Numbered from the stretch's first letter, positions 11,667 through 22,386 are shown. The stretch is DNA of 32,000 nucleotides from an uncultured archaeon (GCA_964648855.1 CAZYLT010000021.1:1-32000); one strand, 5' to 3'. The notes: generated from the sequence alone by a model not told the origin. Numbers and translations are program-made.

Positions 11667-11876
11667 GTAATTCACTCTCCGTTTGTAAACAACGTTCCCC
11701 CTTCTTTTCTTCATATATTGCCCACTGTAAAGATAATCTATCTGCTAGTTTTGGGAGGACTGGCCACCCCGAAACATGATCCAGCCTTCCACCCCGGTCT
11801 GCCACCAGAGCCGCCTTTGCAATATCCTTAAATTTCCCCAGCGTTCTGCCGCTCGTGAACTGCGGCCGTAGTCTAG
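11535..11876 (+). repeat. ~340-bp direct repeat, copy 2
   Basis: Homologous to 5776-6113. Confidence 0.95.
11819..11834 (+). promoter_or_regulatory. Candidate archaeal BRE/TATA (GCAATATCCTTAAATT) for the 5' tRNA half and array
   Basis: TTAAAT lies about 30 nt upstream of G1 at 11862. GCAATATCCTTAAA recurs at 12098-12111, with a variant at 6056-6069. Confidence 0.5.
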
Positions 11877-11897
11877 TTTTATGATAGAAGCCTTCCA
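11862..11897 (+). pseudogene. 5' half of a tRNA-Gly(TCC), positions 1-37
   Basis: GCGGCCG TA GTCT AGTTTT ATGAT A GAAGC CTTCCA aligns with the intact tRNA 5' half; homology stops after A37. Confidence 0.85.
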
Positions 11898-12196
11898 CTG
11901 AATTGTCCGTCATAGCGGGGTCTGGGCCCTGACTCAAGCATGACAGAACCCTTCCACTGATACGTCCCTTCTTTCACCTGAAGTTGTCGCAAAGAAGATG
12001 CCACCCTTCCACTAATATGTCGCATTGGAATATCGATTGAGGACTGTTCAATCTATGATCCAGGCCTTCCACCGATATACCCAGAGAGTTCACTCTAGCA
12101 ATATCCTTAAAACAAGTGTTCAGACACCCTTGACTCCAGAGGGACAATCGGGATTTGGGTCGAATCGATATGATCCAACCCTTCCACTGATCGTCC
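11881..12196. repeat. Interspaced repeat array with ~55-60 nt period, consensus ATGAT-N6-CTTCCA-CTGATAYGTCC, hairpin spacers
   Basis: CTTCC cores at 11892, 11951, 12006, 12066, (degenerate ~12129), 12181 and, in register, the tRNA anticodon loop at 12241. Confidence 0.85.
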
Positions 12197-12209
12197 TTTC
12201 TAGACTCCC

Positions 12210-12284
12210 GCGGCCGTTGTCTAGGGGCTAGGATTCCACCCTTCCGAGGTGGTAGCCCGGGTTCGATTCCCGGCGGCCGCACCA
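12210..12284 (+). tRNA. tRNA-Gly(TCC), CCA encoded, no intron
   Basis: Acceptor GCGGCCG/CGGCCGC; anticodon stem CCACC/GGTGG, loop CTTCCGA; T arm CCGGG-TTCGATT-CCCGG; ACCA end. Confidence 0.96.
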
Positions 12285-12301
12285 CAATCCTCTTTCTTCG
12301 G

Positions 12302-19136: not shown

Positions 19137-20177
19137 GTGCGAATACTACATACCTCTGATTTACATTTGACCAACGAAAGGCCGGAAACCATTGACGCCT
19201 TGAAAGAGTTACTAAAAGTGGCTTCTACGAAGGAGGTAGACTTTCTCACTATCAGTGGTGATGTTTTTGAAAATCCGTCAGAAGCAGACAAGCTAAGAAC
19301 GAAACTGAGGAATCTTTTCAAAGAAGTAGACTATAGAATAATTGCAATACCGGGAAACCATGATGGAACTATACTAAGCCAAGATTTTGATTTTGGTTTT
19401 GAGGTGATCAATGAGATCCCCTTTGGTACCATAATTTCGGACGACTTGTCAATTATAGGGATTCCCTATACTGACAGCCCTTCAGATGAGCTACTGCTAA
19501 ATCTTAAGAAAGCACAACAAGACTGCCCTATTCGTATTTTACTTGTTCACTGTACGCTGGATTGGGGATACAGTTCTGAATCCTATGGTGATGAAGATGA
19601 AAAATCCTATTTTCCAGTTAGCCGCGACCAGCTTTCTGCACTGGGCTTTGATTACATTCTTGCAGGACATTTTCATTCAAGAACTGATATAATCAAATTG
19701 AAGGGAGGAGGCACCTTTGTCTACCCCGGCTCTCCAGTGTCACATACCAGAAAGGAGAGCGAAAAACGGCATGCTGTTCTCATTGATACGGAATCAAACT
19801 CCTTGGAATCTATTCCTTTGAATACTAGATATTTCGACCAATTAGTCCTAAAGGTTGCGCCGGGGAAAGAGCAGGAAACAGAATCCGAAATTCGGGAATG
19901 GTATTCTGAACGAAAAGACGATGACTGTGAAATGCACATCATTGTCAGAGGTGCAATAGAAAGGAAAGAAAAGGAATTCGAAGATTCGATTGCTGAGATA
20001 GCTCCTGATACCGAGATTTGGAATGAAACCAAAGATGTGAAGACCGTTTTAAAGCACGACTTGTTCAGACGATTCAAAAAGAAAATAGAGAACAATGAAC
20101 AGATTGCCGATATCGAGGGTATCGAGGAAACGGTAATGGAGGTCATGTCCAATTTAATGGGAGCGGATGAGATATGA
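19137..20177 (+). CDS. Mre11/SbcD-like metallophosphoesterase nuclease (YhaO-like)
   Basis: ILHTSDLH, SGDVFE, PGNHD, LLVH, LAGHFH, YPGSP motifs; GTG start at 19137 preferred over 19089. Confidence 0.92.
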   Translation: MRILHTSDLHLTNERPETIDALKELLKVASTKEVDFLTISGDVFENPSEADKLRTKLRNLFKEVDYRIIAIPGNHDGTILSQDFDFGFEVINEIPFGTIISDDLSIIGIPYTDSPSDELLLNLKKAQQDCPIRILLVHCTLDWGYSSESYGDEDEKSYFPVSRDQLSALGFDYILAGHFHSRTDIIKLKGGGTFVYPGSPVSHTRKESEKRHAVLIDTESNSLESIPLNTRYFDQLVLKVAPGKEQETESEIREWYSERKDDDCEMHIIVRGAIERKEKEFEDSIAEIAPDTEIWNETKDVKTVLKHDLFRRFKKKIENNEQIADIEGIEETVMEVMSNLMGADEI

Positions 20178-22141
20178 CCTTTAAGATTCGCCAAATCGGT
20201 ATCAGTAAATATGGTCCTCTAGAGGACTGTAAAATAGATCTCAATCCGAATTTCCAATGCATTTTTGGGCCTAACGAATCGGGAAAGACACTGATAATCG
20301 ATGCAGTGTTAAAGATGGCTCTGCCCTCCAAACTTCACACATATCTTGCAGAGGATTTGCAGAGAGTTGATGGTAAAGCTCATGGATGGATTACAATTGA
20401 TGTGGATGGGACGAAACACGAAATATCGGATAGTAAAAAAGCAAACGAGATTTTGCCAATAGATCTGGAAAACCTCCGTGACCTCCTCGTTGTGCGTAAC
20501 TCAGACTTGTATAATTTCAATGAGGCAGGATGTCTTAGCAGAGCAACTGACTTGATGATGGGGTTGCGTACTGAAGAGATTGAAAGGATACAAGAGGCTT
20601 TGAAAGAAAGAGGTCAGCTAACTCCCACAAATCTTGATATTTCTACAGCTGGTGGCCCAGAAAGTGCAGGAAATCAAATAAGTCTGGCAAGGGAACTTCG
20701 TTCTGATATCGGGAAATACCTTGCAGAGGTTGGAAACACAGAGGTTTCAGAGGCAGAGTCAAAAATAATACGGTTAACCACTGAACTAGAAGCAAGCAAA
20801 CATATCGAAGCAGAACTGATTGAAGCTAGGAACCTGGCGGAATTCAGGAAACTGAAGGCATCTTTGGAAAGGGGGCGCAATGCCTTCGGACAATTAGTTG
20901 AATCACAGGAGGATGTCGTTCAGGCTGGCATTAGTGAGATATCCACCTATCGTGATTTTGACCAGGATTACAATAGTCTTGAGCAGAAACAGCAAAAAGT
21001 AGGCAGGTGGATTATTCTAAGTCTAACAGGATCTGTTCTATTAGGGATACTCTCCCAATTGCTCAACAGCATTATAGTGGGAGTCACTCAGTCGCTAGTT
21101 ATGCTAGGTATTTTCATTGGTATGCTAGTGTACTGGAGGAGTATCTCCAAGGATTTGTATACAATCAGAGAGTCTAGAAAGTCAATTATCTACATAGCAC
21201 GGGACCTAGGGTCAAATACCGTAGAAGTGGAAGAAGCTATTGAAGCAATCAGAAAGAAAAGCAAAGAAATTGAAGAATGGAAAGACTCTCTAACTGAAAG
21301 CGTTGGTAGCATCAAGTCTCTGTTAGATTTGAAATCAGGTACAAAAGAGGAAGCCTTGGCACTAGCTGAACAAGCTGTTGCTAATCGTAAGCCCGATATC
21401 AACGAAGACATTGACCGGAAATATGATGATAATAAGTACAAAGAAGTCAAGGAATCTATAGAAGAGAAGAGGGAACGAATAGAAAAACTCCGGGAGAATC
21501 TTAGAAATCACCAGAGCTCCTTAGGAAATTTCAAGACAAGATTTGGAAAGCTCCATTTTCAACAATACCTAGGTCGTCCAGCAGATTACAGTCCAGACAG
21601 TATCGACTCTTTGCCAAAAGTCCAAGTCGAATTGAAACATTTCATATCATCAATTGAAGAAACTGCAACTCAATGCGCGATTGCTGTGAAACTCTTTGAT
21701 GAGCTTGCTGAAGAAGAGCAAAACAAAATATCAGAATTACTTTCAAAGAACAGTCGCGCCTCAGAGATTTTTTCCAATATAACCCATAGACGCTACTCGG
21801 AAATAACTTACTTATCAGAAAAAAAGGCAATCCGGGTTAGAAGGCAAGACGGCAGTGAGATGCGAATTTTGAATTTGAGTAAGGGGACGAAGGACCAAAT
21901 GTATCTGTCCGTCCGGCTTGCATTAGCCGAACAGATTCTAAGAGGAAAACCTGGGTTTTTTGTTCTAGATGATCCTTTCATTGCATCTGATTTGGAGCGA
22001 CGAGCAATACAGATTGAGATGTTGAAGAAAATGACTGATGAAGGGTGGCAGGTTCTGTACTTCACGGCTAATGAAAACCTTGCCAACGAACTCAAATCAA
22101 AATTCAAGACAAACTATGTTACTCTCCCCCCTCTGAAGTGA
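20174..22141 (+). CDS. Rad50/SbcC-like SMC ATPase with central hydrophobic hairpin (YhaN-like)
   Basis: Walker A GPNESGKT, coiled coils, LSKG signature, Walker B VLDDPF; ATGA overlap with the upstream gene; two TM-like helices and no CxxC hook. Confidence 0.9.
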   Translation: MTFKIRQIGISKYGPLEDCKIDLNPNFQCIFGPNESGKTLIIDAVLKMALPSKLHTYLAEDLQRVDGKAHGWITIDVDGTKHEISDSKKANEILPIDLENLRDLLVVRNSDLYNFNEAGCLSRATDLMMGLRTEEIERIQEALKERGQLTPTNLDISTAGGPESAGNQISLARELRSDIGKYLAEVGNTEVSEAESKIIRLTTELEASKHIEAELIEARNLAEFRKLKASLERGRNAFGQLVESQEDVVQAGISEISTYRDFDQDYNSLEQKQQKVGRWIILSLTGSVLLGILSQLLNSIIVGVTQSLVMLGIFIGMLVYWRSISKDLYTIRESRKSIIYIARDLGSNTVEVEEAIEAIRKKSKEIEEWKDSLTESVGSIKSLLDLKSGTKEEALALAEQAVANRKPDINEDIDRKYDDNKYKEVKESIEEKRERIEKLRENLRNHQSSLGNFKTRFGKLHFQQYLGRPADYSPDSIDSLPKVQVELKHFISSIEETATQCAIAVKLFDELAEEEQNKISELLSKNSRASEIFSNITHRRYSEITYLSEKKAIRVRRQDGSEMRILNLSKGTKDQMYLSVRLALAEQILRGKPGFFVLDDPFIASDLERRAIQIEMLKKMTDEGWQVLYFTANENLANELKSKFKTNYVTLPPLK

Positions 22142-22187
22142 CCCTTCCAAGGTTCTGACCCGGGTTCAATTCCCGGCGGCCGCACCA
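22141..22187 (+). repeat. Well-preserved 3' half of tRNA-Gly(TCC) of a different allele, att-like scar
   Basis: ACC CTTCCAA GGTTC TGAC CCGGG TTCAATT CCCGG CGGCCGC ACCA. Confidence 0.92.
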
Positions 22188-22227
22188 TCTGATTTTCAAT
22201 GGTACATCCCTCATGATTTGATACATT

Positions 22228-22307
22228 ATGAAATCGCAAAAGTGAGTGAGCTCCTGTAGTCAACTTACGTGTTCCACCCTTTTTCCTCTTAGTGTCGCCA
22301 TCATCTC
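22228..22307 (-). ncRNA. Orphan diverged copy of the tnpB-downstream (omegaRNA-like) sequence
   Basis: Shares blocks ATGAAAT, GAGTGA, ACTT, GTGTTC, CCCTT, AGTGTCGCCA.CA.CTC with near-identical spacing to 12302-12380. Confidence 0.6.
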
Positions 22308-22386
22308 CCCGATTCTTGGAAGCAATCCATTCTTCTCGTAAGAAGACTCAAATTGGAATTCTTCTCATCCTGATGAGGTTGTAAAT

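What the first reader, a model, noticed from the sequence alone, without database searches (positions are those of the whole stretch)
11740..22310. Candidate new system: tRNA-Gly-anchored locus with a TnpB-like nuclease, an array of tRNA-allele-matching units and a giant PD-(D/E)xK protein
Seen: array, intact tRNA-Gly, omegaRNA-like segment, tnpB(-), 1538-aa nuclease(+), 3' tRNA half, mre11/rad50-like pair, second 3' tRNA half, orphan omegaRNA-like copy. No recognisable TnpA, integrase or Cas1/2. Established: TnpB is an RNA-guided ancestor of Cas12; some CRISPR-associated transposons home to tRNA genes using dedicated spacers; many elements integrate in tRNA genes. Inference, model A: on the tnpB strand each unit reads hairpin + GGACRTATCAG handle + 17-nt guide TGGAAG-N6-ATCAT complementary to tRNA-Gly, i.e. 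a proto-CRISPR array whose guides all address allelic variants of one tRNA gene (homing or tRNA replacement). Model B: the units are recombination sites with conserved boxes around a variable 6-bp overlap, letting one element enter several tRNA alleles.
Basis: partly seen in the sequence, partly recalled or inferred. Interest (0 to 1): 0.93.

Follow-up and report, generated by a model that had tools for sequence, protein, structure and literature searches.

The report
tRNA-Gly hotspot with Cas1-TnpB element
A glycine tRNA gene of a Thorarchaeota (Asgard) genome carries a copy of an already catalogued but untested mobile element (a TnpB RNA-guided nuclease paired with a giant Cas1-like integrase), and next to it sits an undescribed, conserved ladder of 27-base tRNA-derived sites that are most likely the element's recombination sites rather than a CRISPR-like guide array.

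Summary
The "giant PD-(D/E)xK protein" is more than a nuclease. Its first 240 residues have the Cas1 catalytic fold with an invariant E/H/D set. They are followed by a RecB/Cas4-type nuclease and a RecA-like domain. So this is the published, purely computational "aCas1-TnpB" element of Asgard archaea (PMC10691335), not a new gene system.

The element is bounded by direct copies of the tRNA-Gly 3' part. It lies in the same position at tRNA-Gly(UCC) in at least 8 loci from 6 genera.

The array appears to be new. Its units are tRNA positions 21-37 plus C-TGA-N4-TC, 27 nt in all, spaced about 58-60 nt or about 110 nt apart. They occur upstream of tRNA-Gly(UCC) in all 8 loci that carry tnpB, and are absent from about 14 of 21 loci without it. 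They are 93% conserved against 71% for their spacers.

Strain differences begin at or near a unit's 5' edge. Tests for guide function were all negative.

Best reading, at 0.5: the units are stacked, still-constrained recombination sites of a Cas1-type element at a tRNA hotspot.

An earlier follow-up of this scan noted the same kind of array in another Thorarchaeal genome.

The parts
1855..1879 (+). Third copy of the U1-type unit (ATGATCCAGCCTTCCAC + CCCGGTCT), far upstream of the finding
   Evidence: 25/25 match to 11776-11800; sequence read
5776..6113 (+). Direct-repeat copy 1 (342 bp): U1-type unit at 6013, a promoter-like box and tRNA-Gly positions 1-16
   Evidence: 87.7% identical to 11535-11876; sequence read
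11535..11876 (+). Direct-repeat copy 2: unit U1 (11777-11803), promoter-like GCAATATCCTTAAAT and tRNA-Gly positions 1-16 (11861-11876). The two copies bracket about 5.4 kb of genes
11881..12197 (+). Ladder of units U2-U6 (28 nt each, starting at 11881, 11940, 11995, 12055 and 12170). Each is tRNA positions 21-37 + C-TGA-N4-TC. A second promoter-like box lies at about 12098-12112
12210..12284 (+). Intact tRNA-Gly(UCC). Its own positions 21-37 lie in register with the ladder, 60 nt after U6
   Evidence: ARAGORN and Rfam 57.4 bits
12285..12313 (-). 29-nt stretch between the tRNA end and the omegaRNA terminal hairpin. It differs between orthologous loci and is the candidate cis guide of TnpB
   Evidence: alignment of five loci; no second match found
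12314..12440 (-). omegaRNA-like scaffold. It includes a terminal hairpin with the conserved loop GGTTCACTC (12314-12327); its 5' limit inside tnpB was not determined
   Evidence: ten copies of the scaffold core in the genome; alignment; the motif is reported in PMC10691335
12420..14114 (-). tnpB (564 aa): RuvC D246, alternative Glu E407, D441 and two CxxC pairs, all invariant in 11 homologues
14352..18968 (+). Giant aCas1 protein (1538 aa). Cas1-like catalytic domain at aa 10-240; RecB/Cas4-type PD-(D/E)xK at aa about 370-485; RecA-like domain at aa 589-880; HCHC zinc motif at aa 1260-1278; the rest has no fold match
18975..19021 (+). tRNA-Gly 3' copy 1 (anticodon loop to 3' end, 74% identity), 6 nt after the aCas1 stop codon. 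It is the right boundary of the element
19089..22141 (+). Mre11/SbcD-like phosphoesterase and Rad50/AriA-like ATPase cassette, absent from the closest relative
22141..22187 (+). tRNA-Gly 3' copy 2 (87% identity). Its 3' stem strand GGTTC is complementary to the stem of unit U3 (GAACC)
22205..22310 (-). Orphan omegaRNA-like remnant of an older element. In the relative L040 a truncated tnpB still follows it

Best explanation
The locus is a tRNA-Gly(UCC) integration hotspot occupied by one copy of the Asgard aCas1-TnpB mobile element. The element comprises omegaRNA, tnpB and a divergently transcribed giant Cas1-like / Cas4-like / RecA-like protein.

Shown:
- The element sits between the intact tRNA and a direct copy of the tRNA 3' part.
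- An older element remnant (a 3' copy plus an orphan omegaRNA) lies further downstream.
- The same arrangement recurs at tRNA-Gly(UCC) in several genera, and paralogous elements sit beside other tRNA genes.
- The upstream ladder consists of 27-nt modules (tRNA positions 21-37 fused to C-TGA-N4-TC). These modules co-occur with the element, are far better conserved than their spacers, carry anticodon-stem variants seen in real alleles, and mark the points where strains differ.

Inferred:
- The modules are the recombination (att-like) sites of the element family, created when incoming DNA carrying a tRNA-Gly copy recombines in the anticodon arm.
- Each event adds about one leader (23 nt) plus one 5' half (37 nt), which gives the 58-60-nt step.
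- Older copies decay except for the 27-nt core, which stays constrained because the recombinase still recognises it. aCas1 is the most likely recombinase.
- TnpB, with its single cis guide, acts as the usual maintenance or homing nuclease and does not read the ladder.
For: 1. Gene pair. All four full tnpB copies in this genome are paired head-to-head with a giant paralogue. Of 15 loci fetched around giant-protein homologues, 11 also hold tnpB.

2. Cas1 domain. In the AF2 model (pLDDT 82.8), aa 10-240 match Cas1 catalytic domains. The scores are 8flj_A Z 13.3 (rmsd 3.4, 178 aligned), 4n06_B Z 12.4 and the casposase 6opm_A Z 10.9. hhalign places the giant protein's invariant E82/R107/N119/G126 on Cas1's invariant E146, its conserved Arg (R170 or R173), N180 and G186. 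H170, D177 and D180 are invariant or nearly so. The family is published as aCas1-TnpB, 'likely the transposase', 'often flanked with repeats', with a GTTCACTCA motif (PMC10691335).

3. Boundaries. tRNA 3' copies follow the aCas1 stop codon in the window, L028, L027 and L040. In L028 and L040 the copy is followed by an old omegaRNA. In L027 the outermost fragment abuts the flank that lies next to the tRNA in empty-site relatives.

4. Co-occurrence. All 8 tRNA-Gly(UCC) loci with tnpB have units. About 14 of 21 loci without tnpB have none. Two of the exceptions keep an omegaRNA remnant.

5. Constraint. Unit columns are 93% identical (130/140) between the window and L040, against 71% (134/190) for non-unit columns; Fisher p = 3e-7.

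6. Junctions. Homology between the window and L040 begins at or near the 5' edge of unit U2 (blastn from 11880, alignment from about 11878). A third upstream context joins at 11880 in run X4. The 342-bp repeat ends at tRNA position 16. L040 and L028 hold one more unit than the window.

7. The only two units with a recognisable tRNA 1-20 upstream include the one whose left flank is new in this lineage.
Against: - 38 of 40 units have no detectable tRNA 1-20 upstream. The '5'-half plus leader' origin therefore rests on length and on two recent cases, and it needs old copies to have decayed completely outside the core.
- Neighbouring units, and the last unit compared with the resident tRNA, differ in N6. 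So they are not simple target-site duplications of one event.
- No terminal inverted repeats were seen by eye, and no scan was run for them.
- No enzyme activity is shown.
- The Pfam Cas1 model does not detect the giant proteins, and hhalign alone is weak (E 0.056).
- The paralogous element at tRNA-His has no such ladder.
- Higher conservation of the units could also come from gene conversion rather than from selection.
Confidence: 0.5

Rival explanations
1. Cas1-made repeat-spacer array. aCas1 inserts short DNA of about 30 bp at a tRNA-derived 27-nt site and duplicates the site each time, as Cas1-Cas2 duplicates a CRISPR repeat. The ladder would then be a primitive, slowly growing CRISPR-like array next to TnpB.
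For: - The geometry is CRISPR-like: a 27-28-nt conserved unit, roughly 30-nt unrelated spacers, and steps of 50-62 nt in about 17 intervals.
- The unit edges are sharp, with no tRNA 1-20 upstream in 38 of 40 units.
- A Cas1-fold domain and a Cas4-type nuclease are encoded 2 kb away.
- L028 holds two adjacent units with identical N6.
Against: - Spacers are orthologous and only drifting between the window, L040 and L028, so there is no turnover.
- The repeats differ in N6.
- The 20-mers taken from three spacers have no exact match in the viral contigs.
- No Cas2 was seen.
- The step length also equals leader plus 5' half, so the period does not decide between the models.
Confidence: 0.15
2. First reader's model A. 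Read on the tnpB strand, each unit is a handle (GGAYNNRTCAG) plus a 17-nt guide against a tRNA-Gly allele, and TnpB uses these guides for homing or allele replacement.
For: - The orientation relative to tnpB is constant in all loci.
- The tRNA-like part is 17 nt, about a TnpB guide length.
- N6 values match real alleles of other genomes (for example CCAGGC, CCGAGC, CCGACC, TCCAGC) and never equal the resident tRNA.
- The units are under constraint.
Against: - Neither the handle nor the whole unit pairs with the omegaRNA region (z from -0.7 to +1.2).
- The scaffold is separated from the ladder by a 29-nt stretch and the whole antisense tRNA.
- The spacer hairpins are not conserved.
- TnpB already has its own cis variable stretch.
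Confidence: 0.07
3. First reader's model B in its strict form. The variable 6 bp is the crossover (overlap) region, so a set of units lets one element enter hosts with different tRNA-Gly alleles.
For: The units are conserved boxes around a variable N6 that matches natural alleles. Junctions between strains map to units.
Against: - The observed breakpoints lie at the unit edges (near positions 20/21 and at 37/38), and the 3' copies start at the anticodon loop or at about position 22, not within N6.
- A Cas1-type integrase needs no overlap homology (established knowledge of Cas1 and casposase chemistry).
Confidence: 0.1
4. Inert debris. The units are decaying leftovers of old integrations and unequal crossing-over, with no present role.
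For: - tRNA genes are classic accretion sites.
- Unit number changes by one period between relatives.
- Minor contigs skipping 88-303 nt occur in the metagenomes.
Against: - Units are 93% conserved against 71% for their surroundings.
- The same 27-nt core is kept across six genera while everything around it is unalignable.
Confidence: 0.13
5. Regulatory modules in the pre-tRNA leader: anticodon-arm mimics that tune tRNA-Gly maturation.
For: In the window, L028, L040 and L044 the last unit lies between a promoter-like box and the tRNA.
Against: - In L062, L063, L066, L067 and L070 the promoter-like box lies between the last unit and the tRNA, so the units there are outside the pre-tRNA.
- tRNA-Gly genes without the element have no units.
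Confidence: 0.05

Closest known systems
aCas1-associated TnpB loci of Asgard archaea (groups Cas1H-Asgard-1/-2; Altae-Tran et al. 2023, PMC10691335; Makarova et al. 2020, CRISPR J, not held here)
   Same: A TnpB paired with a giant Cas1 homologue, flanking repeats, the GTTCACTC motif downstream of tnpB, and a Thorarchaeota host.
   Different: The main text of PMC10691335 never uses the word 'tRNA'. The tRNA-Gly anchoring, the tRNA 3' copies as boundaries and the upstream 27-nt ladder are not described there. Nothing about these loci has been tested experimentally.
Casposons (Cas1/casposase transposons, some of which insert at tRNA 3' ends)
   Same: A Cas1-family protein as the probable integrase (casposase 6opm_A Z 10.9), and a tRNA gene as target.
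   Different: No PolB was found. No terminal inverted repeats were noticed. The direct repeats are 47-55 bp, not 14-15 bp. The Cas1 domain lacks the N-terminal beta domain and is fused to Cas4-like and RecA-like domains. A TnpB partner is present.
tRNA-integrating genomic islands with stacked att repeats (tyrosine-integrase type; anticodon-loop class)
   Same: Direct copies of the tRNA 3' part downstream, accretion of several elements, and junctions in the anticodon arm.
   Different: No tyrosine integrase lies within the element. There is an additional ladder of internal tRNA fragments (positions 21-37) on the 5' side, with a conserved non-tRNA tail.
CRISPR arrays (type V)
   Same: The repeat-spacer geometry, and the neighbourhood of Cas1-like, Cas4-like and Cas12-ancestor genes.
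   Different: The repeats are not uniform, no spacer turnover is seen, and there is no evidence of processing or of guide use.
Integron attC / cassette arrays
   Same: Repeated sites that bracket gene blocks. The U1-type units at 1855, 6013 and 11777 have 4-6 kb of genes between them.
   Different: No IntI is present, no conserved attC-like hairpin is seen, and the sites derive from a tRNA.

Membership tests
Asgard aCas1-TnpB element | TnpB with a RuvC triad and zinc finger | tested here: met
   Pfam TNB 2e-11 and NCBIfam guided_TnpB 8e-25. D246, E407, D441 and two CxxC pairs are invariant.
Asgard aCas1-TnpB element | An adjacent giant Cas1 homologue | tested here: met
   Fold match Z 13.3, 12.4 and 10.9 to Cas1 and casposase over aa 10-240. 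Invariant E82, H170 and D180 (D177 nearly so), aligned to Cas1 motifs. The Pfam PF01867 model itself does not detect the protein.
Asgard aCas1-TnpB element | GTTCACTCA-type motif downstream of tnpB, next to a variable stretch | tested here: met
   GGTTCACTC on the minus strand at 12314-12327, conserved in five loci. The motif is quoted.
Asgard aCas1-TnpB element | Locus flanked by repeats | tested here: met
   tRNA 3' copies at 12238-12284 and 18975-19021; the same is seen in L027, L028 and L040.
CRISPR array | Near-identical direct repeats | tested here: not met
   Units are 68-82% identical to the reference copy and N6 varies.
CRISPR array | Spacer turnover between relatives, or spacers matching mobile elements | tested here: not met
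   Spacers are orthologous in the window, L040 and L028. Three spacer 20-mers have no exact match in the viral contigs; that search is narrow.
Casposon | Family B DNA polymerase and terminal inverted repeats | tested here: not met
   The element holds only tnpB and the giant gene. Pfam finds no polymerase. No inverted ends stood out among the repeats.
IS200/IS605 or IS607 TnpB insertion sequence | A TnpA (Y1 or serine) transposase, or its subterminal hairpin ends | tested here: not met
   No such ORF lies between 12285 and 18974.
Tyrosine-integrase tRNA island | A phage-type integrase gene next to the att repeat | tested here: not met
   Pfam scans of 18 selected ORFs across the window found none. 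Smaller ORFs were not all scanned.
Integron | attC sites with a conserved imperfect hairpin | tested here: not met
   Mean folding z is -0.46, and the hairpins are lost in L040.

The most novel reading that the evidence does not exclude
The 27-nt units are live integration targets of the Cas1-like giant protein. Each integration duplicates a tRNA-derived site and adds a short insert or a gene block. On this reading, the locus is a natural intermediate between casposon target duplication and a CRISPR repeat array, sitting beside a TnpB (the Cas12 ancestor) and a Cas4-like nuclease.
Probability: 0.17. Interest if true: 0.93.

Novelty: new variant of a known kind. Interest (0 to 1): 0.62.

Why it matters
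The aCas1-TnpB pair is the only known natural coupling of a Cas1-family integrase with the ancestor of Cas12. Nobody has shown how it moves or what it targets.

This locus gives concrete, testable substrates: one tRNA gene, three recurrent junction positions (near 20/21, at 37/38 and at the 3' end), and a conserved 27-nt site that occurs only where the element is or was. If aCas1 acts on these sites, it would define a new Cas1-based integration mechanism and bear on how repeat arrays first arose. If it does not, the ladder is still an unusually clear record of serial recombination inside a tRNA anticodon arm.

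Tried and rejected
- The giant protein has no hit by sequence in Pfam, NCBIfam, PADLOC or PDB, and none by features in the ESM Atlas.
- The C-terminal 690 aa were modelled (pLDDT 70). No fold match exceeds Z 6.
- Aloposons (PMC8813620) were considered and rejected. 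Their proteins are 3000-6000 aa and occur in tandem.
- The cis variable stretch was searched in the genome with up to two mismatches, in the array and as an 18-mer in public collections. Only chance-level hits in unrelated bacteria appeared.
- Spacer 20-mers were searched in the viral contigs and gave nothing.
- Handle-to-omegaRNA duplexes are no better than shuffled controls.
- No RNA holder was listed for this stretch, so expression could not be examined.
- The contig joint 12284->22241 has only 29-30 letters on its short side. It can be explained by a related strain's 3' copy plus omegaRNA, so it is not counted as an empty site.
- The small array joints (skips of 88, 95 and 303 nt) are low-depth and only suggestive.
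- Split-tRNA and trans-splicing readings were rejected. The units lack an acceptor strand, and the U2 stem has no complementary partner among the tRNA and 3' copies read.
- No unit-like ladder stands upstream of the tRNA-His that carries a paralogous element.

Full report
OBSERVATION

The window holds one tRNA gene, tRNA-Gly(UCC) at 12210-12284. Upstream of it, six units of the form ATGAT-N5/6-CTTCCAC-TGAYNNRTCC stand on the + strand at 11777, 11881, 11940, 11995, 12055 and 12170. Their spacings are 104, 59, 55, 60 and 115 nt. The tRNA's own positions 21-37 follow U6 by 60 nt, so the tRNA is in register with the ladder. The pattern gives 5 array hits where 0.18 are expected.

Downstream of the tRNA lie, in order:
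- an omegaRNA-like segment;
- tnpB at 12420-14114(-);
- a 1538-aa ORF at 14352-18968(+);
- a tRNA-Gly 3' copy at 18975-19021;
- an Mre11/SbcD-like and Rad50-like gene pair;
- a second 3' copy at 22141-22187;
- a second omegaRNA-like segment.

THE GENES

tnpB is a typical guided TnpB. D246, D441 and two CxxC pairs are invariant. The canonical RuvC-II glutamate position reads IGRLKG, and an invariant E407 lies near the zinc finger.

The genome has four full tnpB copies and about a dozen fragments of the tnpB 3' end, and ten copies of the omegaRNA scaffold core. All four full copies are paired head-to-head with a 1500-1830-aa paralogue of the giant protein.

The giant family has no Pfam, NCBIfam, PADLOC or PDB sequence hit. 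Its named members come from Thorarchaeota.

A 17-sequence alignment gave an AF2 model of aa 1-900 with pLDDT 82.8. An exhaustive structural comparison found two matches:
- aa 10-240 match the catalytic alpha-helical domain of Cas1 (8flj_A Z 13.3, 4n06_B Z 12.4, casposase 6opm_A Z 10.9);
- aa 589-880 match RecA/RAD51/KaiC-type domains (Z about 11).

Z near 13 for a helical domain is not proof on its own. Two further results support the match. First, every hit at Z 9 or more for that region is a Cas1-family protein. Second, a profile-profile alignment that is weak overall (E 0.056) puts the giant's invariant E82, R107, N119 and G126 on Cas1's invariant E146, its conserved Arg (R170 or R173), N180 and G186. 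In addition, H170-x6-D177-xx-D180 resembles the Cas1 His...Asp-xx-Asp/Glu motif.

Between the two domains lies a RecB/Cas4-type nuclease signature. E378, D391, E/D415, K417, Q476 and Y480 are invariant.

The C-terminal 690 aa carry an HCHC motif but have no fold match.

WHAT IS KNOWN

I found the Cas1 fold before I consulted earlier notes. Those notes pointed to Altae-Tran et al. 2023, which I then read. That paper places Asgard Cas1 (aCas1)-associated TnpBs in two groups. It calls aCas1 the likely transposase because the loci are 'often flanked with repeats'. It also reports a variable region next to a GTTCACTCA motif downstream of tnpB.

That motif is present here, as GGTTCACTC on the minus strand at 12314-12327. 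In five orthologous loci the short variable segment 5' of the motif appears complementary to the bases 3' of it, so it looks like a hairpin stem that covaries rather than a guide. I read this by eye from the alignment and did not count the pairs. The 18-30 nt between this hairpin and the tRNA end also differ between loci. They are the better candidate for the cis guide.

The gene pair is therefore already described, though only computationally.

THE TRNA LINK

In four other genera (L025-L028), in a close relative (L040, 84.5% nucleotide identity) and in L044 and L067, the same arrangement recurs. The order is tRNA-Gly(UCC), convergent tnpB, then the divergent giant gene.

A copy of the tRNA 3' part follows the giant gene's stop codon in the window, L027, L028 and L040. 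In L028 this copy is recognisable from about position 22 to position 76. In L028 and L040 the copy is followed by an old omegaRNA, and in L040 by a truncated tnpB as well. So elements have piled up one after another.

In genus g2, relatives with an empty site show that the outermost tRNA fragment of the occupied locus abuts the native downstream flank.

Paralogous elements lie beside tRNA-His, tRNA-Tyr and tRNA-Ala.

The Mre11/Rad50-like cassette and one of the 3' copies are absent from L040.

THE LADDER

Forty units from 12 loci share a 27-nt core, which is tRNA positions 21-37 followed by C-TGA-N4-TC. There is no conservation outside this core.

Only two of the 40 units have a recognisable tRNA 1-20 upstream. 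One of them is U2 of this window.

All eight tRNA-Gly(UCC) loci with tnpB carry units. About 14 of 21 loci without tnpB carry none. Two of the exceptions (L063, L066) keep an omegaRNA remnant.

Between the window and L040, unit columns are 93% identical and the rest 71%, with p = 3e-7. Units U3 and U4 are identical in the two genomes.

The N6 values include exact matches to the anticodon-stem region of tRNA-Gly(UCC) alleles of other genomes. They never equal the resident tRNA.

Some 3' copies pair with a unit of the same locus. GGTTC of copy 2 pairs with GAACC of U3, and GCCTG of L040 pairs with its CGGGC. With about six units per locus this is only suggestive.

JUNCTIONS

Homology between the window and L040 starts at or near the 5' edge of unit U2: blastn starts it at 11880, and the alignment shows identity from about 11878. 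To the left of that point the window has a promoter and tRNA 1-20, and L040 has the end of a NosD-like gene. A third, different left context joins at 11880 in metagenome run X4.

A 342-bp direct repeat (5776-6113 and 11535-11876, 87.7% identical) holds a U1-type unit, a promoter-like box and tRNA 1-16. The two copies bracket 5.4 kb of genes. A third U1-type unit stands at 1855.

L040 and L028 hold one more unit than the window, which fits a unit-by-unit crossover. The units thus behave as recombination points. An earlier follow-up on another Thorarchaeal genome (e1-5500116) reached a similar view.

TESTS OF THE GUIDE-ARRAY IDEA

- The handle and the whole unit pair with the omegaRNA region no better than shuffled controls.
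- The spacer hairpins are weak and are not kept in L040.
- The spacers are orthologous between relatives, and the 20-mers taken from three of them have no exact match in the viral contigs.
- The cis variable stretch matches nothing in the array, in the genome or in public collections beyond chance.
- In five loci a promoter-like box lies between the last unit and the tRNA, so a role in the tRNA leader is also unlikely.

VERDICT

The gene system is known. The conserved, element-linked ladder of tRNA(21-37)-derived sites is not described in what I could read.

I favour, at 0.5, stacked and still-recognised recombination sites of the aCas1 element family. A Cas1-made repeat-spacer array (0.15) and a TnpB guide array (0.07) remain open. 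The mechanism of integration is inferred, not shown.

Noticed in passing
window 12241-12247 and the loci: The resident tRNA-Gly has G37 (loop CTTCCGA), whereas the 11 other tRNA-Gly(UCC) genes compared have A37. Its anticodon stem differs from the closest relative by a double compensatory change (CCACC/GGTGG against CAGCC/GGCTG).
   Followed up: partly
window 19089-22141: The Mre11/SbcD-like and Rad50-like pair gives weak PADLOC hits (AriA 1.5e-14, PDC-S60 2e-8). It is present here but not in the 84%-identical relative, and it is bracketed by two tRNA 3' copies. It may be a defence cassette captured at the hotspot.
   Followed up: partly
G000:C9:104-770 and C1:217 (own genome, outside the window): A regular repeat of about 73-nt period containing GTGAATCCCGAAGAAAGGGAATTGAAAC lies at a contig start and looks like a bona fide CRISPR array. 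Two canonical cas1 genes are at C32:12867-13709 and C42:7773-8633.
   Followed up: no
G000:C28 (L038), about 9800-10100 in contig coordinates: Between tRNA-His and the tnpB 3' end lie an orphan omegaRNA-like piece and a T-arm/acceptor fragment of a different tRNA. An inverted partial tRNA-His copy lies at the contig start.
   Followed up: partly
L026 (G006:C6) 12154-15655: Two tnpB genes stand in tandem (91% and 56% identical to the window's) between the giant gene and tRNA-Gly.
   Followed up: no
window 23745-24391 and 23086-23350 / 24245-24509: An 86-aa ORF plus a PIN-domain gene form a VapBC-like pair. A 265-bp direct repeat (69% identical) lies around them.
   Followed up: no
giant protein against TnpB across L025-L028: The giant proteins are all about 44% identical to the window's, whereas the adjacent TnpBs range from 66% to 91%. 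This suggests that the two halves of the element are exchanged by recombination.
   Followed up: no
own genome: ARAGORN with introns allowed finds only 42 tRNAs. Several are doubtful calls (Pyl, or SeC with long 'introns'), and many carry introns at 37/38, the same position as the 3' edge of the units.
   Followed up: no
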